Assembly (NCBI GenBank): GCA_944384875.1
Contig: CALWVA010000001.1
Span: 1 to 42,793, forward strand
Length of the DNA stretch: 42,793 nucleotides
Source: an uncultured Clostridia bacterium
Lineage (GTDB): Bacteria; Bacillota; Clostridia; Oscillospirales; Acutalibacteraceae
Reading direction: 5' to 3'
Shown: piece by piece, positions 11,892-36,488 of the stretch
How positions within the stretch are numbered: the stretch's first letter is position 1
Layout of the letters: the number at the start of each line of letters is the position of its first letter
Translations under genes and position numbers: made by a program
The notes under the pieces: generated by a model
Seen by the model: the letters and a program-made list of their open reading frames with translations, nothing else
Told to the model about the DNA's origin: nothing
The model's database searches: none

Positions 11892-12334
11892 GGGATCCCA
11901 CCTTCCTGCATGATTTTCAAATAGATCGTCTTGATTGGAGTTATTCACAATACGATAAATGTTTTTTTATTATAAATAGATTATCCCCGAATGTCAATAA
12001 AGTATCCGGCGCGTCAGCCTTGCGAAAAAAGCATGTTTATGTAAAAAAGAACCGACTTGCGTCAGATCAAAGCCTATCAAGCGACAACCGCCGGTTTGGT
12101 GTATGAATTTGTAGATGCAGCTACCAGATTGCATGGCAGCTGCTGCGTAAAACAGAAAACATCCCCGGCGGGCAGGCCGGAGATGTTTTGTTGCAGGTTC
12201 AAAGGCAAAGTCAGGAATTATGATGCATGTTTAAATGTTGCTTTTTGGCAGCTTTTCCGGTGAGTACCGGACACAGTGATTTTACACATCCACTGAATGC
12301 CTGAAAAAGTTTAAAATTTTTATATAAATCGCCT

Positions 12335-12364
12335 ATGACATCTTTTACGAATTTGTGTTATAAT
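12335..12364 (+). promoter_or_regulatory. Candidate sigma-A promoter for the carD-family gene
   Basis: aTGACA (12335-12340), an 18-nt spacer, then TGtTATAAT (hexamer 12359-12364). It lies about 160 nt upstream of the ATG. Confidence 0.45.
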
Positions 12365-12524
12365 TATTATACCATTAGTGGTTTGTCGATGTCAGCGTGC
12401 TGACCTGGTTCCCGTCAAACCGCTTTTGTTGTTTGTGTTTTATTTGCTGTATACTTTGTGGCAGCCAATGTATATAGCAGTATATCTTTTTCAGTTCTAT
12501 ATTCTGCAGAAAGGAAGAATCGTG

Positions 12525-13028
12525 ATGTTTGCAGTAAATGACACAGTGATGTATGGAACCGCCGGGGTATGTGAAATTGTAGATATCCGCGCGCAAAAGT
12601 TCTATCAACAGCCGGAAAAGCTTTATTATGTGCTCAAACCGATTTACGAACACAATGAAACCATTTATTGTCCGGTTGATAATGAAAAGGTGCGTATGCG
12701 CCGGTTGCTTTCTAAAGATGAAATTTATCAATTGATTCAAAATATGTCAGATTTGGATATTGAGTGGATCGATGACGACCAACAACGTAAAGAAGTTTTT
12801 AATGAAATGCTGAAAAATGGTAGCCATCAGGATCTGATTCGTCTGATCCGCGCGCTGTATCTGCATAAACAGCAGACAGCCAAAGCCGGGCAGAAATTTC
12901 ATGTTGCCGATGCGGCGATCTTAAAAGAAGCACAGCGTACGCTGCATGGCGAATTTGCACATGTGTTGCATCTGCAGCCGGATGAGGTGGCGCCGTTTAT
13001 TATGAAAGCGCTTGGGGAACAGGCGTAA
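12525..13028 (+). CDS. carD: CarD/CdnL-family RNA-polymerase-binding transcriptional regulator
   Basis: MFAVNDTVMYGTAGVCEIVDI...LYYVLKPI... matches the CarD_TRCF N-terminal Tudor-like domain and is followed by a helical C-terminal domain. AAGGAAG lies 7 nt before ATG 12525. The upstream in-frame extension in the ORF track is hydrophobic junk. Confidence 0.88.
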   Translation: MFAVNDTVMYGTAGVCEIVDIRAQKFYQQPEKLYYVLKPIYEHNETIYCPVDNEKVRMRRLLSKDEIYQLIQNMSDLDIEWIDDDQQRKEVFNEMLKNGSHQDLIRLIRALYLHKQQTAKAGQKFHVADAAILKEAQRTLHGEFAHVLHLQPDEVAPFIMKALGEQA

Positions 13029-13086
13029 CCGGGCGCTTGATCGCCTGTTCAGATATGTGATCAAAGCAGATGAAAATATGATCTAT

Positions 13087-14122: not shown

Positions 14123-14198
<76 letters not shown>

Positions 14199-15298: not shown

Positions 15299-17098
15299 TT
15301 AAGAAAACTGCGAATTATAAAGCGCCGCATAAAATCCGTTTTGGCGCATCAACTGCTGATGATTTCCCTGTTCAATCACATCTCCATCTTTGACCACCAG
15401 AATCAGATCTGCGTTCTGAATGGTCGACAGGCGGTGTGCGATCACAAAGCAGGTGCGCCCTTTCATCAGTTCTGCCATCGCGGCCTGAATCTGCAACTCT
15501 GTCCGTGAATCGACGTTGGATGTGGCTTCGTCCAGAATCAGCATCTGGCTTTTGGGCAGCATGGCGCGGGCGATGGTAATCAGCTGCTTTTGCCCTTTGG
15601 AAATATTGACGCCGTCGTCTGACAGCAGCGTATGATAGCCTTCCGGCAGCCGTTGAATAAAAGAATGGATTTTCGCGGCCTTTGCGGCGGCGATCACCTC
15701 CTCCATCGTCGCATCTTCCCGGCCATAGGTAATATTTTCGAGGATTGTTCCGTAAAATAGCCAGGTGTCCTGCAACACCATGGTATACGCACCGCGCAGA
15801 CTGTCTCTGGTGATGTTGTGAATATCGGTTTGGTCGACAGAGATTGTGCCGGTATCGATGTCGTAAAACCGCATCAGCAAATTGATGATCGTTGTTTTTC
15901 CGGCGCCGGTCGGGCCGACGATCGCCACTGTTTGACCTGGCTTTGCATGCAGCGACAGATGATGCAGAACCGGTCTGCCCGGCAGATATCCAAAGGCCAC
16001 GTTTTGCAGCCGCACATCTCCCTGCGCCTGCAACAGGCATGCCGCTCCCGGTTTATCAGCCGGCTCCGGCTGTTCATCGATAATACGGAAAATGCGCTCT
16101 GCTGCCGTAAACGCAGACTGAAATTCGCTGATAATGTTGGCAAATTCGTTGATCGGGCCGGCAAATTTACGGGAATACATCACAAATTGCGTCACGCCGC
16201 CGATGCTCATAAACCAGACTGAAGACGCTAAAACAGTGCCGTTTTGAGACAACAGATAGAGAATGCCGCCGAAAATCATGATCATGGAGATGGACAGGTT
16301 GTTGATAAAATTGACCGAGGGGCCGATGATCGCGCCATAATAGTCGGCGTCATAATAAGCGTCGACCGCCTCTTTGTTGCGCTGGTCGAATTGTTTGGTA
16401 ACGGTTTGCGCCCGATGATAGATGCCGATGGTCTTTGCGCCTGAAAGCATTTCTTCGGCATAGCCGTTTAATTCACCCAGCTTCCGGGACCGTTTGCGAA
16501 ACAGGGGCTGAATCTTTTTGGCTTTATGCCGTGTGAATGCAATCGAGATCGGCACGGTGATCGCAAACACCAGAATCAGCGGTTTTGAAATGACAAACAT
16601 AAAATACAGCGAGCCGACCACCGTATACACACTGGTAAGCACCTGTACCAGATCTGTCGAAAGCGATGCATTCACCGTATCGATGTCATAGGAAATGCGG
16701 CTGATGATATCGCCCGTTGTATGCGTATCAAAATAGGAGACCGGCAATACCGTCAGCTTTTCAAACAGCTGTTTTCGCATGCGATAGGTGATACTCTGGC
16801 TCAGGTGCACCATGAAAAAGGTCAGCAGATAAGACAATACCGCAGAGATCACATAGCAAACCAGCATCCGCCAGAAGTTGTATAAGACCTGGTCCATCAA
16901 TACGCCGTTTTTATTGGAAATTGCATCCATCGCGGCGCCGAGATACCGCGGGCCCAGCAGCGCCAGATAGTTGGATAAAAACGAAAAAATCAGAGCTATA
17001 ACGGCTAAATGCCAGTATTGCAGAATATATCCCAGCAACCGGAATAAAATATGCCCACCGGTTTTTGAGTTCTCAAGCCGCTGTTTTGCTTTATTCAA
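15299..17098 (-). CDS. ABC exporter, fused permease/ATPase (type IV exporter half-transporter)
   Basis: Six-TM N-terminal domain followed by an NBD: Walker A GPTGAGKTT, signature ISKGQKQL, Walker B LILDEATS, H-loop AHRLST. Confidence 0.92.
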   Translation of the reverse strand: MNKAKQRLENSKTGGHILFRLLGYILQYWHLAVIALIFSFLSNYLALLGPRYLGAAMDAISNKNGVLMDQVLYNFWRMLVCYVISAVLSYLLTFFMVHLSQSITYRMRKQLFEKLTVLPVSYFDTHTTGDIISRISYDIDTVNASLSTDLVQVLTSVYTVVGSLYFMFVISKPLILVFAITVPISIAFTRHKAKKIQPLFRKRSRKLGELNGYAEEMLSGAKTIGIYHRAQTVTKQFDQRNKEAVDAYYDADYYGAIIGPSVNFINNLSISMIMIFGGILYLLSQNGTVLASSVWFMSIGGVTQFVMYSRKFAGPINEFANIISEFQSAFTAAERIFRIIDEQPEPADKPGAACLLQAQGDVRLQNVAFGYLPGRPVLHHLSLHAKPGQTVAIVGPTGAGKTTIINLLMRFYDIDTGTISVDQTDIHNITRDSLRGAYTMVLQDTWLFYGTILENITYGREDATMEEVIAAAKAAKIHSFIQRLPEGYHTLLSDDGVNISKGQKQLITIARAMLPKSQMLILDEATSNVDSRTELQIQAAMAELMKGRTCFVIAHRLSTIQNADLILVVKDGDVIEQGNHQQLMRQNGFYAALYNSQFS

Positions 17099-18818
17099 TA
17101 AAGTTCCCTCCCATCTGAGATGCGCTGATTTCCTGATAGACCGCGCAATGTTTCATCAGATGCGCATGATCGCCGCTTCCGATGATCTGCCCGTCCTCCA
17201 ACACAATGATGAAATCCGCGTTCATGACCGAACTGACCCGTTGCGCCACGACCACGCAGGTGGTATTACTCATATTTTCGGCAATCGCCGCCCGCAGATT
17301 GGCGTCTGTTTTATAATCCAGCGCCGAGGAAGAATCGTCCAGAATCAGAATGTCGGGATGCGCCGCCAACGCCCGGGCGATCAGCAGCCGCTGCTTCTGA
17401 CCGCCTGAAATATTGGTCGCTTTTTGAGACAGCACATGTTGGTAGCCGTCTGCAAAAGCGGTGATAAAATCATCGGCCTGGGCAATTTTTGCCGCGCGCA
17501 CAATCTCTGCGTGCCCGATCGGCCGGCCAAACCGGATGTTTTCTTCAATGGTATCGGAATACAGAAAATCATTTTGCATTGCCACGCCGAATTTTAGATG
17601 CAGCTCTTCTTCGGGAATGGTGCGGATATCCCGCCCGTCGATGCGGATCCCGCCGGCATCCACGTCATATAAGCGCATCAGCAGACTGACCACCGTGGTT
17701 TTCCCGCTGCCGGTGGCGCCGATGATGCCCAACGTGCTGCCGCGGGGCAACGAGAAGCTGATGTGCTTTAAATTGTCCCGGCTGTTGTTATAAGAAAAGC
17801 AGACGTCGTCAAATACAATATAGGCGCCGTCGTCCCGGGGCGGATAGACAGCTGCAGAAACCACCGCCAGATCTTTTGGCGCATCGACCACCTGTTGGAT
17901 TCGTTTGGCAGACGCTGCGCTTTTGGTATACATCATAAAAATTCTGGTAACAGAAAGCGTCGCGGTAGAGATCATGGTAAAATACTGCGTAAAAGCGACG
18001 ATTTTTCCCGGCTCAGTCTGCTGCCCCATGACGCGGTAAGCGCCGAGCAACACGACAAAGGTGATGCCAAGGTTCATTAACAGGCTCATGACAGGGTTGA
18101 CAAATCCCATTGTCAAACTGGCCTTTTTTTCCGCCTGGATCAAATTCCGGTTGACCCGGTCATACCGCTGGTGTTCTTTTTGCACTTTGGAAAGGGCCTT
18201 GATCACACGTATGCCCTGGGCGTCCTCACGAACCACGCGGATCATGCGATCAACCGACCGCTGCACATTTGCATAAAGCCGGACGCCGAACATGGAAACC
18301 AGATAGACCACAATAAAGATCACCGGCATTACCGCCAGCATGACCAGCGACAAAAAGGGATCCATAATCAGTGTTACAAGGATGCCGCCGAACAGTAAAA
18401 GCGGCGCCCGCACCCCCAGCCGCTGGATTCTGCCGATAAAATTATGTACGTTATAAGTATCGGTAGTGATTCTAGATTCCAGCGACGGTATCGTAAACTG
18501 ATCGATCTGTTTGCCTGAGAGAGTCATGGTTCTGTAAAACAGGTCATGCCGAATCTTTTCGGCGCTGTCGCGGGCGACCTTTGAAGCCATGCGGTTGGCT
18601 TTGACGTTACAGATCAGCGCAATCGCCGCGCATAAAATCATGACGCAGCCCCAGACCACGATCATTGACAGCCGGCCGTCGTGCGGCACGATCTCATCCA
18701 GAATATAGCTCAGAATATAAGGCAGCGCCAGCTCAATCAGCGTTCCGATACATTTGATGAACAGCCCGACCAGCATCGCGCTGACATAGGGTTTTAAATA
18801 TCTGCATAAAAATTTCAT
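17091..18818 (-). CDS. ABC exporter, fused permease/ATPase (partner half-transporter)
   Basis: TMD plus NBD: Walker A GATGSGKTT, signature ISGGQKQRL, Walker B LILDDSSSALD, H-loop AQRVSS. It overlaps the downstream partner by 8 nt, as expected for a heterodimeric exporter. Confidence 0.92.
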   Translation of the reverse strand: MKFLCRYLKPYVSAMLVGLFIKCIGTLIELALPYILSYILDEIVPHDGRLSMIVVWGCVMILCAAIALICNVKANRMASKVARDSAEKIRHDLFYRTMTLSGKQIDQFTIPSLESRITTDTYNVHNFIGRIQRLGVRAPLLLFGGILVTLIMDPFLSLVMLAVMPVIFIVVYLVSMFGVRLYANVQRSVDRMIRVVREDAQGIRVIKALSKVQKEHQRYDRVNRNLIQAEKKASLTMGFVNPVMSLLMNLGITFVVLLGAYRVMGQQTEPGKIVAFTQYFTMISTATLSVTRIFMMYTKSAASAKRIQQVVDAPKDLAVVSAAVYPPRDDGAYIVFDDVCFSYNNSRDNLKHISFSLPRGSTLGIIGATGSGKTTVVSLLMRLYDVDAGGIRIDGRDIRTIPEEELHLKFGVAMQNDFLYSDTIEENIRFGRPIGHAEIVRAAKIAQADDFITAFADGYQHVLSQKATNISGGQKQRLLIARALAAHPDILILDDSSSALDYKTDANLRAAIAENMSNTTCVVVAQRVSSVMNADFIIVLEDGQIIGSGDHAHLMKHCAVYQEISASQMGGNFIE

Positions 18819-18858
18819 GGCGATTCCTGATGCCTTTCAAAATATCGTCTTGCCTGTA

Positions 18859-19074
18859 CACATGTTTGCGATCGCCGCCACGACGGCGATCAAACGTGCT
18901 TGTAATGCCCCGCGCAGCGGATAATAACTGCTCTTGCGGTTATTATACCATATTGCAGTTGGCAATATGGTATAATTGCACATGTTTGCGGTTGCTGCCT
19001 CGGCAGCGAGCAAACGAGCTTGCAATGCCCCGCGCAGCGGATAATAACCGCTCTTGCGGTTATTATACCATATT
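18859..19074. repeat. Tandem duplicated 96-nt structured unit (period 120 bp) carrying extended -10 boxes
   Basis: Unit 1 is 18859-18954 and unit 2 is 18979-19074, with about 10 mismatches by hand alignment. Each unit contains a long hairpin, a CCGC-GCA-GCGG mini-hairpin and an 11-4-11 palindrome ATAATAAC(C/T)GC-TCTT-GCGGTTATTAT. A 15-bp inverted repeat (18942-18956 / 18962-18976) separates the units. Confidence 0.85.
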
Positions 19075-19183
19075 TTTTCGAAACCGTCGACCGTTTGCAG
19101 GTTATTCAGAATTTTTTTTACAGAATATAGCGCCGGTCGCAATTTTGTGTGCAGCCGAAAGTATGAAAATCAAACAAGGCCGC

Positions 19184-19212
19184 TTGCGAAATCCGGCGCA
19201 GGCTGATATAAT
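19184..19212 (+). promoter_or_regulatory. sigma-A promoter of pth-mfd
   Basis: TTGCGA (19184-19189), a 17-nt spacer, then TGaTATAAT (hexamer 19207-19212). Confidence 0.55.
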
Positions 19213-19269
19213 GAATATGCTTGTGTGCGCTGTTTCGGACAGTATGATGCACACATTGAGTTTGAGAGG

Positions 19270-19881
19270 ATGATTGGCGCGGTGTTTTTCAGGAGAAAGC
19301 AATTCGACAGCAGCGTTGACTGGTGTATTGTCGGGCTGGGTAATCCGGGCCGCGAATATGACGGGTCGCGGCATAACATCGGTTTTGCCGTGTTGGATTA
19401 TATCGCCGACAAAACCGGCGTCGCAGTCAAAAAGCTGAAGTGGAAAGGCCTGTATGGAACCGGCGTGATCGACGGGCAGCGGGTACTGCTGCTCAAGCCA
19501 CAGACTTTTATGAACAACTCGGGAGAGAGCGTTCGCGATCTGTTGTCGTTCTACAAGCTCCCGCCCGAACGGTGTATTTTGCTGTTTGACGATATCTCGC
19601 TGCCGCCGGGCAATATTCGCATCCGCCGAAAGGGATCAGACGGCGGGCACAACGGCGTTAAAAGCATTTTATATCTGACAGGGTCTGATCAGTTTCCCCG
19701 CATCAAGATTGGCGTTGGGCAAAAGCCCCGGCCGGATTATGATCTGGCCGCGTGGGTGTTGGCCAGGTTTCCGGAACATGATCTGCCCGCAATGCGGCAG
19801 GCTGCCGAGAAAGCCTATCAGTCGGTGTTATTGATGCTGCAGGGGCAGACCGAACAGGCGATGAACCGCTATAATTCTTAG
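19270..19881 (+). CDS. pth: Peptidyl-tRNA hydrolase
   Basis: IVGLGNPGREYDGSRHNIGF, LLKPQTFMNNSGESV, DDISLPPGNIRIRRKGSDGGHNGVKS and RIKIGVG are canonical Pth motifs. The start is uncertain: ATG 19270, or GTG 19282. The ORF-track GTG 19225 lies about 6 nt after the predicted TSS and has no SD. Confidence 0.9.
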   Translation: MIGAVFFRRKQFDSSVDWCIVGLGNPGREYDGSRHNIGFAVLDYIADKTGVAVKKLKWKGLYGTGVIDGQRVLLLKPQTFMNNSGESVRDLLSFYKLPPERCILLFDDISLPPGNIRIRRKGSDGGHNGVKSILYLTGSDQFPRIKIGVGQKPRPDYDLAAWVLARFPEHDLPAMRQAAEKAYQSVLLMLQGQTEQAMNRYNS

Positions 19882-33263: not shown

Positions 33264-36200
33264 ATGAAAGTGACAAAAAAAGTTGTCAGCATGTTGCTGG
33301 CTGTCTGCTTGCTGGCCAGTATGTTTGCCGTCGGCGCGGTAGTATCGTCGGCAACTGGTGGAGCAGAGCAGACTGCGGCGCCTGCCTATGAGTCCCTGGG
33401 TGTTTACAAGAACACGACATGGGGTGGCGGCGCACCGGAAGGCGGCTTCACAGCGACACAGAATGAAGACGGAACAGTTACCTATTCGTCTACAGCAGAT
33501 ACGGCACAGTATCAGCTGCTTGACTGGGGTAATCAGGACGCATCGGTGATTACGGATGACGCAGTTGGCCTGCGGTTCAAACTGCGGGTTGACTCGGTTG
33601 GCAAAACCGATGTTCCGCTGGAAGGCTATTTCGTAGGAACCAGCTATAGCGATACCTGGCCGACTTGCCGTTTTGACATCACAGCGGCGGTTGGCGAGAC
33701 TGCTGAATATGTGATTCTGTTTAAGGACTTTGCCAACGGCGCTGGTATCACGCTTGACACGGTGAGAGCGTTCACCCATACACAGTTCAGAGTACGTGCG
33801 CAGGGTCATACAGATTCCAATCAGACCAATCTGGGCGGCATGACCTATACACTGTCTGCGATTGAAGCTGTTAAAGTTGCAGAAGAGCCGGTTGAGCCGG
33901 AAGTTTCTTATGAGTCCCTGGGTGTTTACAAAAACACGACATGGGGCGGCGGGCAGCCGGAAGGCGGCTTCACAGCGACACAGAATGAAGACGGAACAGT
34001 TACCTATTCGTCTACAGCAGATACGGCACAGTATCAGCTGCTTGACTGGGGTAATCAGGACGCATCGGTGATTACGGATGACGCAGTTGGCCTGCGGTTC
34101 AAACTGCGGGTTGACTCGGTTGGCAAAACCGATGTTCCGCTGGAAGGCTATTTCGTAGGAACCAGCTATAGCGATACCTGGCCGACTTGCCGTTTTGACA
34201 TCACAGCGGCGGTTGGCGAGACTGCTGAATATGTGATTCTGTTTAAGGACTTTGCCAACGGCGCTGGTATCACGCTTGACACGGTGAGAGCGTTCACCCA
34301 TACACAGTTCAGAGTACGTGCGCAGGGTTATGCAGATGACAATCAAATCAATCTGGGCGGCATGACCTATACACTGTCTGCGATTGAAGCTGTTAAAGTT
34401 GCAGAAGAGTCGGTTGAGCCGGAATATGAATCCATTGCTGTTTATAGAAACACCACTTGGGATGGCGGCGCACCGGAAGAGGGCGGCAACAGAGTCATCA
34501 ATGAGGACGGTACAGTGACTGCCACATTTACTGAGGATGCTGCACAGTATCAGCTCTATGACTGGAACCATATGAATGCGGATGCATTAACAGACGATGC
34601 AGTGGGTATCCGGTTTAAGTTACGGATTGATTCGGTTGGCAAAACTGATGTTCCGCTGGAAGCTTATTTTGTAGCAACAGATTATGGTACTTATCAAACG
34701 CAGGCAGTTCCGCTTACTGCAGCGGTTGGTGAGACCGGCGAATATGTAATGCTGTTTGAGAACTTTGCGGTCAGTGGAGAAGTTGTAGGGGTAACACCTG
34801 CATGGCTGAAGACCGCAAGCCATACACAGTTCAGAGTACGTGCGCAGGGTCATACAGATGCCAATCAGACCAATCTGGGCGGCATTACCTACACATTGTC
34901 GGATATTGAAACCATCAGAGTGGCTGGATCTGCTCCTGATACGACTGCGGAATCAACTGAACCTGAACCCACTACAACTGAAGATCTTTCAAAATACACC
35001 AGTGTATCTTTGTTGAATTGGGAATTAGGCGGCCGTAACTATTCCAGCTCCTGGGGCCAGGGTATGGAATATGATGGCGAAGGCGGCGGTTGGAACGATA
35101 CCGAAGGAACTGCCTTTGACAGAGGTATTTTAACTTCCGATGAAGATTATAATATGATTATCGATACCTTTGGTAACAACATCGGTAAAGTTCAGCAACA
35201 GTTCTGGGCTGACCAAAGCACGAATGCACAGGATTGCTATGTGGCTGCATATGCAGCGCTGAACGGCGATACAGCTACTGACGGCAAAAAGATTCAGTTT
35301 ACAGTAACCAATACCGGTACACAACCGTTCCTGGTCATGGGCAGCTGGTATGTACCTGGCGCTTCTACAATTAATTTTGGTAATGATCAGAAGACCAGTC
35401 CGGAAGCTATTGTGATTGAGGCTGGCGAGAGCAGAGTGATCACACTGGATCTGCCTGCGGGTCAAACTTTGGCGGAGCCGAGCGCAAATGGTTTATCTGC
35501 GGAATTACACTTTATTGCTTACGAGTGGGGCAATAGTGCAATTAGTGGTACAATGAGTCCGATCAGCCTGTTATATCTGGCACCGGAAACGACAACCACT
35601 GAAACTTCCACAACTGAGTCTTCCACAACGGAGACTACTACAGAGACTACTACAGAGACTACTACTGAGCCTCCCGAGACTACTACTGAAACTACCACTG
35701 AGCCTCCCGAGACTACTACTGAAACTACCACTGAGCCTCCCGAGACTACTACTATTGACATCGATGAAAATGATGTTGTAGTGCAGGCGGACACCGTATA
35801 CGGAATGCCTGGCGAAAGAGTAGAAGTTCCGGTGAGATTGACCCAGGCGCCGAAGCTGTGGGCAATGGGTTGGTTTGCTGAATTTGACAACACCAAGCTG
35901 ACATTGGTGGATGTCACCGGCGGCGATGTGTTCAATGAAGAAACCAACGAATGGGTGAAACCTTCTGAGGATCTGATCAGCCGTTCCAACGAGAGAGGCA
36001 GCTATAAGTTCAGCGCGCAGTATAACGGTTCTGACGAAGTAAACGTCACCGGCTTGCTGTGCACGCTGGTGTTCGAAGTTAATGCAGACGCCGTAGACGG
36101 AGATGTCTATGAGATCGCGATCACTGAGTCCATTGGTGATATCATCACTGAGGACGAGACAGATCTGCCGTCCGTGCTGTTGCCGGGTGCAGTTGTTGTT

Positions 36201-36488
36201 GGTGAAGAACAGACTACGACAACTGAGCCGACTACAACCACTGAGCCGACTACAACTGAGTCTACAACACCGGCTGAGACTACTGCAGATGATACCACTG
36301 CTACAGGTGATATTACAGTTGCGGGTGATACTACTACAACCACCACGACTTCCGGTATTGGTGGCGGCAGCATCGGTGGCGGCATCGGCGGCACTACTCC
36401 TCCTATGGGTGCAGTAGCAATGCCCGTTGGCGCATTGATCCTGGCTGCAGCGGCAGGTGTGGTCCTGTTCAAATCTAAAAAACGGTAA
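33264..36488 (+). CDS. Cell-surface modular protein (scaffoldin-like). Order: signal peptide, 3 x ~172-aa repeat, unknown ~200-aa module, Thr/Pro/Glu linker, cohesin-like module, Thr/Gly linker, C-terminal TM anchor
   Basis: An AAAGGAGAG SD lies 9 nt before ATG 33264. The signal peptide is MKVTKKVVSMLLAVCLLASMFAVGAVVSSATG. The repeats and linkers are visible directly in the sequence. The C-terminus ...MGAVAMPVGALILAAAAGVVLFKSKKR is a hydrophobic helix with a basic tail. The ORF-track start at 33078 precedes the predicted promoter. Confidence 0.9.
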   Translation: MKVTKKVVSMLLAVCLLASMFAVGAVVSSATGGAEQTAAPAYESLGVYKNTTWGGGAPEGGFTATQNEDGTVTYSSTADTAQYQLLDWGNQDASVITDDAVGLRFKLRVDSVGKTDVPLEGYFVGTSYSDTWPTCRFDITAAVGETAEYVILFKDFANGAGITLDTVRAFTHTQFRVRAQGHTDSNQTNLGGMTYTLSAIEAVKVAEEPVEPEVSYESLGVYKNTTWGGGQPEGGFTATQNEDGTVTYSSTADTAQYQLLDWGNQDASVITDDAVGLRFKLRVDSVGKTDVPLEGYFVGTSYSDTWPTCRFDITAAVGETAEYVILFKDFANGAGITLDTVRAFTHTQFRVRAQGYADDNQINLGGMTYTLSAIEAVKVAEESVEPEYESIAVYRNTTWDGGAPEEGGNRVINEDGTVTATFTEDAAQYQLYDWNHMNADALTDDAVGIRFKLRIDSVGKTDVPLEAYFVATDYGTYQTQAVPLTAAVGETGEYVMLFENFAVSGEVVGVTPAWLKTASHTQFRVRAQGHTDANQTNLGGITYTLSDIETIRVAGSAPDTTAESTEPEPTTTEDLSKYTSVSLLNWELGGRNYSSSWGQGMEYDGEGGGWNDTEGTAFDRGILTSDEDYNMIIDTFGNNIGKVQQQFWADQSTNAQDCYVAAYAALNGDTATDGKKIQFTVTNTGTQPFLVMGSWYVPGASTINFGNDQKTSPEAIVIEAGESRVITLDLPAGQTLAEPSANGLSAELHFIAYEWGNSAISGTMSPISLLYLAPETTTTETSTTESSTTETTTETTTETTTEPPETTTETTTEPPETTTETTTEPPETTTIDIDENDVVVQADTVYGMPGERVEVPVRLTQAPKLWAMGWFAEFDNTKLTLVDVTGGDVFNEETNEWVKPSEDLISRSNERGSYKFSAQYNGSDEVNVTGLLCTLVFEVNADAVDGDVYEIAITESIGDIITEDETDLPSVLLPGAVVVGEEQTTTTEPTTTTEPTTTESTTPAETTADDTTATGDITVAGDTTTTTTTSGIGGGSIGGGIGGTTPPMGAVAMPVGALILAAAAGVVLFKSKKR
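33387..34925 (+). repeat. Three tandem in-frame coding repeats (522, 516 and ~500 bp)
   Basis: Copies 1 (33387-33908) and 2 (33909-34424) are almost identical at the DNA level, with about 6 aa differences in ~172. Copy 3 (34425-~34925) is clearly homologous but diverged (YES[LI][GA]VY[KR]NTTW.GG.PE...DDAVG[LI]RFKLR[VI]DSVGKTDVPLE.YFV...HTQFRVRAQG...NLGG[MI]TYTLS.IE). Confidence 0.95.
35667..35753 (+). repeat. 33-bp tandem repeat (2.6 copies) encoding an EPPETTTETTT linker
   Basis: GAGCCTCCCGAGACTACTACTGAAACTACCACT occurs at 35667, 35700 and 35733 (the last copy is partial), inside a longer Thr/Glu/Ser-rich stretch. Confidence 0.9.
35775..36200 (+). other. Cohesin-like module within the surface protein
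   Basis: VVVQADTVYGMPGERVEVPVRLTQ...GWFAEFDNTKLTLVDVTGGDVF...GSYKFSAQYNGSDEVNVTGLLCTLVFEVNADAVDGDVYEIAI...LPGAVVVG follows the cohesin pattern ([VI].[VI]......PG..V.VPV......G......[YF]D...L....V..G.......G.[IF].F........G.L..[IL].F.V......G.Y.I........G.[IV].V). Recognition is by eye only. Confidence 0.6.

What the first reader, a model, noticed from the sequence alone, without database searches (positions are those of the whole stretch)
18859..19074. Tandem 120-bp structured element with mirror-image extended -10 boxes upstream of the ABC exporter
Two copies of a 96-nt unit (18859-18954 and 18979-19074) sit exactly 120 bp apart. I count about 10 mismatches by hand. They fill the divergent region between the ABC-exporter start (ATG 18818, minus strand) and the pth-mfd promoter.

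Each unit contains three structures.
(i) A long hairpin. In unit 1 it is CATGTTTG-C-GATCGCCG[CCACGA]CGGCGATC-CAAACGTG. In unit 2 the inner stem is a different sequence, TTGCTGCC[TC]GGCAGCGA. Seven of the ~10 differences between copies fall in this 20-nt segment. They include one true compensatory change (C:G to T:A), one C:G to T:G, one change that extends the stem and one that disrupts it. Pairing therefore seems to be conserved more than sequence.
(ii) A mini-hairpin, CCGC-GCA-GCGG.
(iii) An 11-4-11 palindrome, ATAATAACCGC-TCTT-GCGGTTATTAT.

Read on the minus strand, the palindrome contains TGGTATAAT, an extended -10. Each unit therefore places a promoter aimed at the ABC operon inside an operator-like dyad. 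A 15-bp inverted repeat between the units (18942-18956 / 18962-18976) creates the same TGGTATAAT on the plus strand, pointing into unit 2. The last hairpin of unit 2 is followed by ATATTTTTT, which would yield a plus-strand RNA of roughly 95 nt.

I do not recognise this as any known riboswitch, leader or REP family. No regulator gene lies adjacent.
Basis: seen in the sequence. Interest (0 to 1): 0.7.

Follow-up and report, generated by a model that had tools for sequence, protein, structure and literature searches.

The report
Dispersed promoter-bearing hairpin repeat, tandem pair
The tandem structured element upstream of the ABC exporter is two copies of a widespread hairpin repeat of gut Clostridia, absent from Rfam, that carries consensus promoter boxes and usually sits just upstream of unrelated genes, so it is a generic genome repeat and not a dedicated regulator of this operon.

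Summary
Two 96-nt units sit 120 bp apart with 10 mismatches, each has three hairpins, and TGGTATAAT boxes occur on both strands.

The element is not specific to this locus. A profile built without the window recognises both units (E 6e-17 and 8e-10). A capped scan for the last hairpin found 115 loci in 62 species-level genomes of Oscillospiraceae, related Clostridia and some Lachnospiraceae. Copies are solo or in head-to-tail arrays of up to 6 units (period 89-130), and many lie at contig ends. The window's own subtype recurs as a 120-bp array next to an unrelated HD-domain gene.

The family has clear rules:
- Its dyad end abuts the start of an opposite-strand gene in 82 of 93 sites.
- Those genes are functionally unrelated.
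- TG, A-11 and T-7 of the -10 box are almost invariant.
- The hairpins covary and fold better on the window's plus strand (83 of 88).

Best reading: a portable bidirectional extended -10 promoter module with a structured divergent transcript. Transcription, function and mobility are inferred, not shown.

The family is absent from Rfam, and I found no paper describing it. Verdict: a new member of a known kind (promoter-bearing interspersed repeats such as Correia, BOX and ERIC). Interest is moderate.

The parts
18859..18954 (+). Unit 1 of the repeat. It lies next to the ABC exporter and lacks its own dyad at the gene-proximal end.
   Evidence: Direct repeat D1. A family HMM built without the window matches 18869-18952 on the plus strand at E 8.4e-10.
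18861..18898 (+). Hairpin 1 of unit 1. Outer stem 18861-18867 / 18892-18898; inner stem 18870-18877 / 18884-18891.
   Evidence: Minimum-free-energy fold. It holds 7 of the 10 differences between the units.
18910..18920 (+). Mini-hairpin CCGC-GCA-GCGG of unit 1. It is an insertion specific to this subtype, relative to the family consensus.
   Evidence: Fold. It appears as an insert in the HMM alignment. It is also present in L140.
18921..18946 (+). Hairpin 3 of unit 1, an 11-4-11 palindrome with one T.G wobble that pairs only on the plus strand.
   Evidence: Inverted repeat I5. At this position the family shows T.G 9 times and C.A 0 times.
18942..18976 (.). Dyad between the units, a perfect 15-5-15 inverted repeat whose arms carry back-to-back extended -10 boxes. 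The left arm overlaps the 3' arm of hairpin 3 of unit 1.
   Evidence: Inverted repeat I2. It is the conserved dyad of the family, with compensatory changes in the inner stem. It is kept as a 20-4-20 dyad in the sister lineage.
18942..18950 (-). TGGTATAAT extended -10 box pointing toward the ABC exporter. It would give a leader of about 115 nt.
   Evidence: Exact match. Family-level geometry of -10, Shine-Dalgarno site and ATG at gene-proximal arms. No transcription data.
18968..18976 (+). TGGTATAAT extended -10 box pointing into unit 2.
   Evidence: Exact match. In 82 distinct units TG is 82/82, A-11 is 81/82 and T-7 is 80/82.
18979..19074 (+). Unit 2 of the repeat.
   Evidence: Direct repeat D1. 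The family HMM matches 18965-19072 on the plus strand at E 6e-17.
18984..19015 (+). Hairpin 1 of unit 2. It carries the family's CGGTT...GAG motif: a GG bulge, a U-A pair and a U.G wobble.
   Evidence: Fold. It has the same inner stem as Anaerotruncus and L140 units, with compensatory changes. Covariation count.
19030..19040 (+). Mini-hairpin of unit 2.
   Evidence: Read from the sequence, at the same unit offset as the mini-hairpin of unit 1. The minimum-free-energy fold of unit 2 did not draw it.
19041..19066 (+). Hairpin 3 of unit 2, a perfect 11-4-11 palindrome.
   Evidence: Inverted repeat I4. Flagged as terminator-like.
19062..19070 (-). Distal TGGTATAAT box on the minus strand. It has a -35-like TCGACG at 19090-19085.
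   Evidence: Promoter scan, 10 of 12 matches with TG.
19073..19078 (+). T6 run after unit 2. It is local to this copy and is not a feature of the family.
   Evidence: Sequence. Only 22 of 118 terminal copies have a T4 run.

Best explanation
What it is. The feature is two head-to-tail units (period 120 bp) of a multi-copy, modular hairpin repeat family that is absent from Rfam. The family is found in Oscillospiraceae, related Clostridia and some Lachnospiraceae.

A unit has three parts:
1. A dyad hairpin whose two arms are back-to-back extended -10 boxes (ATTATACCAT ... ATGGTATAAT).
2. A variable GC-rich hairpin 1.
3. A hairpin 3 whose 3' arm is also the 5' arm of the next dyad.

How it most likely works. 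The repeat acts as a portable bidirectional promoter module lodged just upstream of a gene.
- The box facing the gene would supply or reinforce that gene's promoter. Here these are the minus-strand boxes at 18950-18942 and 19070-19062, facing the ABC exporter operon.
- The opposite box (plus strand, 18968-18976) would start a short structured divergent RNA, roughly 18983-19078 for unit 2.
- Arrays probably grow and shrink by recombination between units.

Shown: family membership, multiplicity, orientation rule, the -10 conservation pattern, covariation and strand asymmetry.
Inferred: that the boxes fire, what the plus-strand RNA does, and how copies spread.
For: Membership:
- An HMM built from 63 units of other genomes hits unit 2 at E 6e-17 and unit 1 at E 8.4e-10, both on the plus strand.

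Multiplicity:
- Those loci hold 210 unit hits at 126 sites: 75 solo sites and arrays of 2 to 6 units, with periods of 89-130 bp.
- Nineteen contigs end within about 125 nt of a copy.
- The window's subtype forms an array of at least 3 units with period 120 beside an unrelated HD-domain gene in L140.

Orientation:
- The gene on the dyad side is on the opposite strand, with its start adjacent, at 82 sites against 11.
- Between co-directional genes the split is 27 to 2. Divergent sites number 30 and convergent sites 6.
- Orientation follows the gene and not the replication strand: by local GC skew, 30 target genes are leading and 20 lagging.
- The target genes are unrelated: 130 Pfam families among 69 proteins.

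Promoter:
- Many gene-proximal arms read TGGTATAAT, then 20-40 nt, then GGAGG, then ATG.
- TG, A-11 and T-7 are nearly invariant while positions -8 to -10 vary.

Structure and strand:
- In the dyad and hairpin 3, 13 of 21 pairs show compensatory changes.
- Hairpin 1 has a median z of -3.9 at 58% pairwise identity.
- In the CGGTT...GAG class, 93% of cells are paired against 66% in shuffles. Cells changed on both sides number 97 against 27.5, reached by 0 of 500 shuffles.
- Hairpin 1 folds better on the plus strand in 83 of 88 units (p 7e-15). The dyad does so in 70 units against 26.
- The hypothetical minus-strand leader of the ABC operon is no more structured than shuffles (z 0.03).
Against: - There are no transcription data for any copy.
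- Unit 1, the copy nearest the ABC gene, has lost its own dyad. The nearest gene-facing box is therefore about 125 nt from the ATG, further than in most family sites.
- No -35 element accompanies the boxes, except for the one at 19070-19062.
- The loci were found through hairpin 3, so its sequence conservation is inflated. The census is capped and biased.
- Gene calls in the loci are crude ORF calls.
- The plus-strand bias of the structure is not explained by a pure promoter role.
- The set used was preselected for pairing.
- No other copy was seen in the 42.8-kb window, and the copy number in this genome is unknown.
Confidence: 0.55

Rival explanations
1. It is a purely selfish MITE-like mobile element. 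The GGTATAAT arms are transposase-binding ends, or the element inserts into existing -10 boxes. The position upstream of genes and the fixed orientation would then reflect target choice, not a host function.
For: - The family is multi-copy and dispersed, and copies break assemblies.
- The neighbouring genes are unrelated.
- There are many 5'-truncated and decayed copies.
- A 13-nt perfect inverted repeat bounds unit 2, at 18964-18976 / 19062-19074.
- The sister lineage carries a different remnant at the same gene.
Against: - No target-site duplications were seen at 36 complete ends.
- No transposase or other recurrent neighbour was found in 550 flanking ORFs.
- There is no match in viral contigs or phages.
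- Box conservation follows the functional weighting of a -10 element (A-11 and T-7), not uniform end conservation.
- Hairpins 1 and the dyad show strand-specific G-U selection.
- Arrays are head-to-tail with shared arms, which suits recombination better than repeated insertion.
Confidence: 0.2
2. The units are tandem small-RNA genes. Each would have its own extended -10 promoter and would end at hairpin 3. The product would act in trans or bind a protein, and adjacency to gene starts would be secondary.
For: - The plus-strand structural bias, and GNRA and GAA loops on the plus strand.
- An invariant C[GG]UU/GAG bulge with a U.G wobble occurs in about half of the units, flanked by covarying stems.
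- A plus-strand box lies directly upstream of hairpin 1 in every full unit.
- In the window a T6 run follows unit 2.
Against: - There is no general terminator: a T4 run follows 22 of 118 terminal copies, against an A4 run in 24.
- There is no conserved single-stranded seed. The linker and hairpin 1 vary widely, at 58% pairwise identity.
- The 82-to-11 orientation rule relative to the neighbouring gene is not expected for free-standing sRNA genes.
- The dyad hairpin also shows plus-strand bias, although it would lie upstream of the start in solo units.
Confidence: 0.12
3. It is a single-strand DNA hairpin element of the HUH type (REP/RAYT-like, or a PATE derived from IS200/IS605). It would be recognised and moved as a folded plus-strand DNA.
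For: - Strand-specific hairpins that tolerate G.T pairs, conserved bulges, GCGAAGC-type mini-hairpin loops and absence of target-site duplications.
Against: - Orientation is not tied to the replication strand: 30 against 20 by GC-skew proxy.
- No Y1 transposase was found among flanking ORFs.
- Units are about 95-120 nt with three hairpins in head-to-tail arrays. They are not 20-40-nt REPs in alternating orientation.
- Copies lie upstream of genes, not at 3' ends.
Confidence: 0.06
4. One reading: a locus-specific cis-regulatory element (operator dyads, or a leader or riboswitch) that controls the ABC exporter.
For: - It lies directly upstream of the ABC operon.
- The sister lineage keeps a dyad at the same gene.
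Against: - The same element sits beside dozens of unrelated genes.
- The structured strand is antisense to the ABC mRNA, and the sense leader has z 0.03.
- The inner dyad stems covary instead of keeping their sequence, which is unlike an operator.
- There is no Rfam hit.
- More distant homologues of the ABC operon use a MarR gene or other upstream contexts.
Confidence: 0.03

Closest known systems
Correia elements (CREE/NEMIS) of Neisseria
   Same: Both are about 100-150 bp, multi-copy and intergenic. Both lie often just upstream of genes, carry sigma-70-type promoter boxes at their ends and fold into hairpins in RNA. PMC3575422 cites Correia elements as mobile elements that harbour functional promoters. 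The remaining properties listed are from my own knowledge.
   Different: - The sequences are unrelated and the host phylum differs.
- Correia elements have 26-bp terminal inverted repeats and a TA target duplication (my own knowledge). This family shows no target duplication.
- This family forms head-to-tail arrays with shared arms.
- This family has a strict orientation relative to the neighbouring gene.
Pneumococcal BOX elements (boxA-boxB(n)-boxC)
   Same: Both are modular Firmicute intergenic repeats with a tandemly iterated internal module and predicted stable RNA structure, located near genes (properties of BOX elements are from my own knowledge).
   Different: - There is no sequence relation.
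- BOX modules are not built around -10 boxes.
- Here the whole three-hairpin unit is iterated, and the dyad arms are consensus extended -10 elements.
REP/BIME and REPIN elements with RAYT transposases
   Same: Both are palindromic, multi-copy, extragenic and clustered.
   Different: - REPs are 20-40 nt, occur in alternating orientation, lie mostly at 3' ends or between convergent genes, and are associated with RAYT (my own knowledge).
- Here units are 90-120 nt and head-to-tail. Only 3 of 126 sites mix strands.
- Convergent sites are rare, 6 of 65.
- No RAYT was seen in the flanks.
Putative mobile promoters (Matus-Garcia, Nijveen and van Passel 2012; commentary PMC3575422)
   Same: Both are highly similar upstream sequences shared by non-homologous genes within and between genomes, across genera and families. 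Most are not in Rfam.
   Different: That work is a generic catalogue with no defined anatomy. I could not check whether this family is among its groups. The genomes that carry this family are mostly metagenome-assembled genomes or recent isolates, sequenced after 2011.
ERIC/IRU elements of enterobacteria
   Same: Both are imperfect palindromes of about 127 bp in transcribed intergenic regions, with orientation-dependent effects (properties of ERIC elements are from my own knowledge; cited).
   Different: There is no sequence relation. ERIC elements are single long palindromes without arrays or consensus -10 arms.

Membership tests
The dispersed GGTATAAT-hairpin repeat family defined here | Significant match to a profile built from units of other genomes, in the order dyad arm, hairpin 1, hairpin 3. 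| tested here: met
   nhmmer with an HMM of 63 non-window units: unit 2 at E 6e-17 (18965-19072, plus strand) and unit 1 at E 8.4e-10 (18869-18952, plus strand).
The dispersed GGTATAAT-hairpin repeat family defined here | The dyad end faces the start of an opposite-strand gene. | tested here: met
   The ABC exporter ATG at 18818 on the minus strand lies 41 nt from unit 1. The family ratio is 82 to 11.
The dispersed GGTATAAT-hairpin repeat family defined here | More than one copy in the same genome. | not testable with these tools
   There is only one locus in the 42.8-kb window. The same subtype was found at another gene in a different metagenome contig, L140.
Any Rfam family (riboswitch, leader, sRNA) | Match at or above a family's gathering score. 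| tested here: not met
   The window gave only a tRNA at 14123-14195. The best hit in the region was tfoR at 17 bits against a gathering score of 70. Fourteen family loci gave only two T-box hits elsewhere.
MITE (non-autonomous derivative of a DNA transposon) | Terminal inverted repeats. | tested here: inconclusive
   A 13-nt perfect inverted repeat bounds unit 2 (I3). Across the family, however, the ends are better described as a direct repeat of ATTATACCAY, because hairpin 3 and the dyad share an arm.
MITE (non-autonomous derivative of a DNA transposon) | Target-site duplication flanking each copy. | tested here: not met
   No direct repeats were seen at 36 sites with complete ends.
MITE (non-autonomous derivative of a DNA transposon) | A parent IS with matching ends, or a transposase acting in trans. 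| tested here: inconclusive
   There was no transposase among 69 neighbouring genes and no recurrent neighbour among 550 ORFs. Whole genomes were not searched.
REP/BIME (REPIN-RAYT) | Palindromes of 20-40 nt in alternating orientation, mostly at 3' ends of genes, with a RAYT gene. | tested here: not met
   Units are 90-120 nt and head-to-tail, convergent sites are 6 of 65, and no RAYT was seen in the flanks.
Intrinsic (Rho-independent) terminator | A GC-rich hairpin immediately followed by a U tract. | tested here: inconclusive
   Hairpin 3 of unit 2 passes a loose scan, but its T run starts 7 nt after the stem. Across the family, 22 of 118 terminal copies have a T4 run and 24 have an A4 run.
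Sigma-70/SigA extended -10 promoter | A TGnTATAAT consensus, with A-11 and T-7 the most conserved positions, at a suitable distance from a Shine-Dalgarno site and start codon. | tested here: met
   Sequence criteria only. There are three exact boxes, a matching family conservation pattern, and matching geometry at many sites. Activity was not tested.
Transcription-factor operator | Half-sites conserved in sequence with a free spacer, linked to a regulon or an adjacent regulator. | tested here: not met
   The inner dyad varies with compensatory changes. The neighbouring genes are unrelated. No regulator is adjacent.

The most novel reading that the evidence does not exclude
The repeat could be a self-propagating bidirectional promoter cassette whose plus-strand product is a new, abundant class of structured small RNA in gut Clostridia. 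Its defining feature would be the covarying hairpin with the invariant C[GG]UU/GAG bulge. Such an RNA might bind a protein or take part in the element's own spread. The family would then rewire the expression of many genes across Oscillospiraceae.
Probability: 0.2. Interest if true: 0.7.

Novelty: new member of a known kind. Interest (0 to 1): 0.4.

Why it matters
For this window, the ABC exporter has no dedicated riboswitch or operator here. Its upstream region has been colonised by a generic repeat. The 147-aa ORF that public gene calls place across the repeat is probably spurious.

More broadly, the family appears undescribed. It has no Rfam model, and no searched paper holds its core sequence. 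It is nevertheless spread over dozens of gut Clostridia species, including cultured Anaerotruncus, Intestinimonas and Neglectibacter.

If the boxes fire as their conservation suggests, the repeats are a ready-made source of promoter turnover and of divergent or antisense transcription in important gut commensals. They are also a practical nuisance, because they break metagenome assemblies and create false ORFs and CRISPR-like tandem arrays. A covariance model for the family would improve annotation.

Tried and rejected
- Rfam at gathering and permissive thresholds gave nothing.
- BLAST against phages gave no match. Against plasmids it gave one hit, the Anaerotruncus record that opened the family.
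- Viral contig scans gave one chance 19-mer match, L013, with no other similarity. The canonical hairpin 3 gave none.
- Syntenic relatives of the ABC exporter were uninformative. Close relatives of type A are 100% identical in the element, so they give no covariation there. More distant ABC homologues sit in other contexts, such as MarR upstream.
- Iterated nhmmer was unstable because of the palindromes. I replaced it with a fixed core profile and best-strand resolution.
- MAFFT plus RNAalifold recovered the dyad and hairpin 3 but not hairpin 1, because lengths vary. Hairpin 1 was tested by per-sequence folding and by a trimmed, motif-anchored alignment.
- No target-site duplications were found.
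- No shared function or transposase was found among neighbouring genes.
- Orthologous filled and empty sites between Anaerotruncus strains could not be found: no shared flanks exist among the sampled loci.
- The replication-strand explanation of the orientation bias was rejected with a GC-skew proxy.
- The terminator role of hairpin 3 is not general.
- The literature searches found no description of the family. Only the general concept of mobile promoters turned up.
Full report
**1. Observation.**
Units 18859-18954 and 18979-19074 are 96 nt each, 90% identical and 120 bp apart (TRF period 120, score 362). There are exactly 10 mismatches, and 7 lie in unit positions 13-32, the inner stem of hairpin 1.

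Folding gives these elements:
- Hairpin 1 at 18861-18898 and 18984-19015.
- A mini-hairpin at 18910-18920 in the fold of unit 1. The same sequence lies at 19030-19040 in unit 2.
- Hairpin 3 at 18921-18946 and 19041-19066.
- A perfect 15-5-15 dyad at 18942-18976 between the units.

TGGTATAAT occurs on the plus strand at 18968-18976 and on the minus strand at 18950-18942 and 19070-19062. The neighbours are an ABC exporter pair on the minus strand (ATG 18818) and pth and mfd on the plus strand. pth has its own promoter-like site at 19184-19212. The repeat is far beyond chance. The plus-strand units fold with z about -4.2.

**2. The element is not in known collections.**
Rfam gives nothing at gathering or permissive thresholds. 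No phage record matches.

**3. Close relatives.**
The exporter protein occurs in two genomic arrangements.
- Type A (window, L001, L006, L007) has mfd-pth, then the tandem element, then the ABC genes. The element is identical in all four.
- Type B (L002, L008-L012; exporter 96% identical) has the ABC pair directly downstream of a CarD-like gene. The window's copy of that gene lies at 12278-13045.
- In type B only a 20-4-20 dyad (GTGCCGTTATACCATATTGC / GCAATATGGTATAACGGCAC) and a remnant of hairpin 1 remain, in the same orientation toward the ABC start.
- In type-B genomes an IS-like gene sits upstream of pth, and contigs break there.

The repeat at the ABC gene therefore predates the split between the two lineages and has since been remodelled.

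**4. The family.**
A BLAST hit on an Anaerotruncus colihominis replicon revealed a homologous unit. It has a dyad (ATTGTACCATG...CATGGTACAAT), the same hairpin 1 inner stem as window unit 2 with a T:A to C:G compensatory change, and the same hairpin 3.

They come from 62 genomes. These include Anaerotruncus, Faecousia, Intestinimonas, Pseudoflavonifractor, Neglectibacter, Provencibacterium, Faecalibacterium sp. An122 and several Lachnospiraceae MAGs. A profile search of these loci found 210 non-overlapping unit hits at 126 sites. Of these, 75 were solo, 30 double and 14 triple, with arrays of up to six units and periods of 89-130 bp. Only 3 sites mixed strands. Nineteen contigs end within about 125 nt of a copy, as expected for a repeat that breaks assemblies.

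A profile built without the window recognises unit 2 (E 6e-17) and unit 1 (E 8.4e-10) on the plus strand and finds no other copy in the window. The window's own subtype has the mini-hairpin and a period of 120. It recurs as an array of at least three units next to the start of an unrelated HD-domain gene in another metagenome contig. By its Mfd protein the host is an uncultured Clostridia lineage. The nearest named relatives are Acutalibacteraceae (59%) and Neglectibacter (55%).

**5. Anatomy at family level.**
In the window's plus orientation a unit reads as follows:
- ATTATACCAT, then a short variable stem-loop, then ATGGTATAAT. This is the dyad.
- TG(G/C)CCAT, then hairpin 1.
- An A-rich linker.
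- GGTATAATAACCGC-TTT-GCGGTTATTATACC. This is hairpin 3.

In arrays the 3' arm of hairpin 3 is the same stretch of nucleotides as the 5' arm of the next dyad, so the two pairings exclude each other. RNAalifold recovers the dyad and hairpin 3, and 13 of 21 pairs show compensatory changes.

Hairpin 1 is very variable (median 53 nt, 58% pairwise identity) but strongly structured (median z -3.9; 93% of segments below -2). About half of the units share an invariant C[GG]UU/GAG bulge with a U.G wobble. In a trimmed alignment of 31 distinct examples the flanking stems are 93% paired, against 66% in shuffles. They hold 97 double-change cells against 27.5, a value reached by 0 of 500 shuffles, and slid controls give about 50% pairing. 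One caveat applies: that set was preselected for at least 8 of 11 pairs.

Because the loci were found through hairpin 3, its sequence conservation is inflated. Copies that the search pattern did not capture show compensatory variants such as AACGAT/ATCGTT and ATATTGGC/GTCAATAT.

**6. Orientation rule.**
I used simple ORF calls. The gene on the dyad side lies on the opposite strand with its start next to the element at 82 sites, against 11.
- Between co-directional genes the ratio is 27 to 2.
- Divergent sites number 30 and convergent sites 6.
- The median distance from the core to the first possible start codon is 57 nt.

The window obeys the rule. The neighbouring genes are unrelated: 130 Pfam families among 69 proteins, none found in more than 3, and no transposase. 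With local GC skew as a proxy for the leading strand, the target gene is leading at 30 sites and lagging at 20. Orientation therefore follows the gene and not replication.

**7. Promoter evidence.**
Read in the sense of the neighbouring gene, many sites run ATTATACCAT, inner hairpin, ATGGTATAAT, 20-40 nt, GGAGG, 6-9 nt, ATG. In 82 distinct units TG is 82/82, A-11 is 81/82 and T-7 is 80/82, while positions -8 to -10 vary. In the wider alignment the G of TG is invariant. Lineages that changed the 8-mer (GGGATAAT, GATACAAT, GATAAAAT, GGTATATT) changed it in concert in all arms and kept A-11 and T-7. This is the conservation pattern of an extended -10 element, not of an arbitrary stem. Activity itself was not tested.

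**8. Strand of the structure.**
As RNA, hairpin 1 folds better on the window's plus strand in 83 of 88 distinct units. The mean difference is -3.0 kcal/mol, Wilcoxon p is 7e-15, and G-U pairs number 108 against 49. The dyad favours the plus strand in 70 units against 26. At the degenerate position of hairpin 3, T.G occurs 9 times and C.A never. GNRA and GAA loops sit on the plus strand. The hypothetical minus-strand leader of the ABC operon (18935 to 18800) is no more structured than shuffles (z 0.03).

The selected structure is therefore on the strand that runs away from the neighbouring gene, downstream of the plus-strand box. A general terminator is lacking: a T4 run follows only 22 of 118 terminal copies. 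The T6 run in the window is a local feature.

**9. Interpretation.**
The best-supported reading is a portable bidirectional promoter module. One dyad arm faces and probably drives the adjacent gene. The other starts a short structured divergent transcript, hairpin 1 to hairpin 3, whose role is unknown. Candidate roles are insulation or termination of divergent transcription, antisense control of long leaders in arrays, or protein binding.

In the window, the ABC operon would be served by the minus-strand boxes at 18950-18942 and 19070-19062. The second of these has a -35-like TCGACG. Unit 2 would yield a plus-strand RNA of about 95 nt. Unit 1 has lost its own dyad relative to type B, probably through a deletion across the palindrome.

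Rivals are:
- A purely selfish MITE-like element that targets promoters. No target-site duplication, no transposase and no viral link were found.
- Free-standing sRNA genes. There is no terminator and no seed, and the orientation rule would be unexplained.
- A single-strand DNA element of the HUH type. Orientation is not tied to replication.
The evidence argues strongly against this.

**10. Comparison and novelty.**
The family behaves like Correia, BOX, ERIC or REP/BIME elements and fits the concept of putative mobile promoters. It shares no sequence with them and fails the defining tests for REP/BIME. For MITEs it fails the target-duplication test, and the tests for terminal inverted repeats and a parent IS were inconclusive. 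It has no Rfam model. No searched paper holds its core sequence. I rate it a new member of a known kind, and interest is moderate. The most novel reading that remains open is a new abundant structured RNA class tied to a self-propagating promoter cassette.

**Limits.**
- There are no expression data.
- The census is capped and was ascertained through hairpin 3.
- Gene calls and the GC-skew proxy are crude.
- The copy number in the window's own genome is unknown.

Noticed in passing
window 18830-19273 (+): A 147-aa ORF with no Pfam hit spans the whole repeat and the pth promoter region. Public assemblies call it as a gene (L001 3546-3989, L006 2546-2989). It is absent from type-B genomes, so it is probably a false gene call created by the repeat.
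   Followed up: partly
window 12278-13045 versus L002 2350-2853; window about 19156 versus L134-L139: Sister-lineage genomes differ by a rearrangement. There the ABC pair follows the CarD-like gene directly, and an IS-like gene (HTH_23/HTH_28) sits upstream of pth, where homology to the window stops near 19156. Several contigs break at that IS.
   Followed up: partly
window 15299-18818 (-): The ABC exporter pair has homologues 73-79% identical in MAGs labelled Bacilli, Acholeplasmatales, Oscillospiraceae and Eubacteriales, in varied contexts. One lies behind a MarR gene (L003). This suggests horizontal spread of the cassette.
   Followed up: no
L023 2335-2445; L014 about 2840-2910; L040; L085: In Anaerotruncus the gene-proximal promoter arm is often followed by a second repeated module. 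It is a large palindrome, ATGCGCAG...CTGCGCAT, that encloses three small hairpins (for example GCAAACGGC..GCCGTTTGC). The family is therefore mosaic, with further modules that I did not characterise.
   Followed up: no
window 12366-12374 (-): This is the only other exact TGGTATAAT in the window. It lies on the minus strand inside the 5' part of the CarD-like ORF, points leftward, and is not part of a repeat unit.
   Followed up: no
window 35598-35753 and 36212-36256: Tandem repeats with periods of 33, 21, 12 and 18 nt, rich in ACT/GAG (one with period 33 and 96% matches). They may be repeats within a coding region; I did not check whether the region is coding.
   Followed up: no
window 14123-14195 (+): A tRNA gene (Rfam, 64.6 bits) lies between the flavin reductase-like ORF and the CarD-like gene.
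   Followed up: no
L110 7604-7850 (+); L082 2816-3061 (-): T-box leaders reach the Rfam gathering score in two Anaerotruncus loci. They are unrelated to the repeats.
   Followed up: no
L136 1-60; L140 1160-1482: Assemblies break inside the tandem units. L136 starts within unit 1, and the L140 array runs off the contig end. Array lengths in short-read assemblies are therefore lower bounds.
   Followed up: partly
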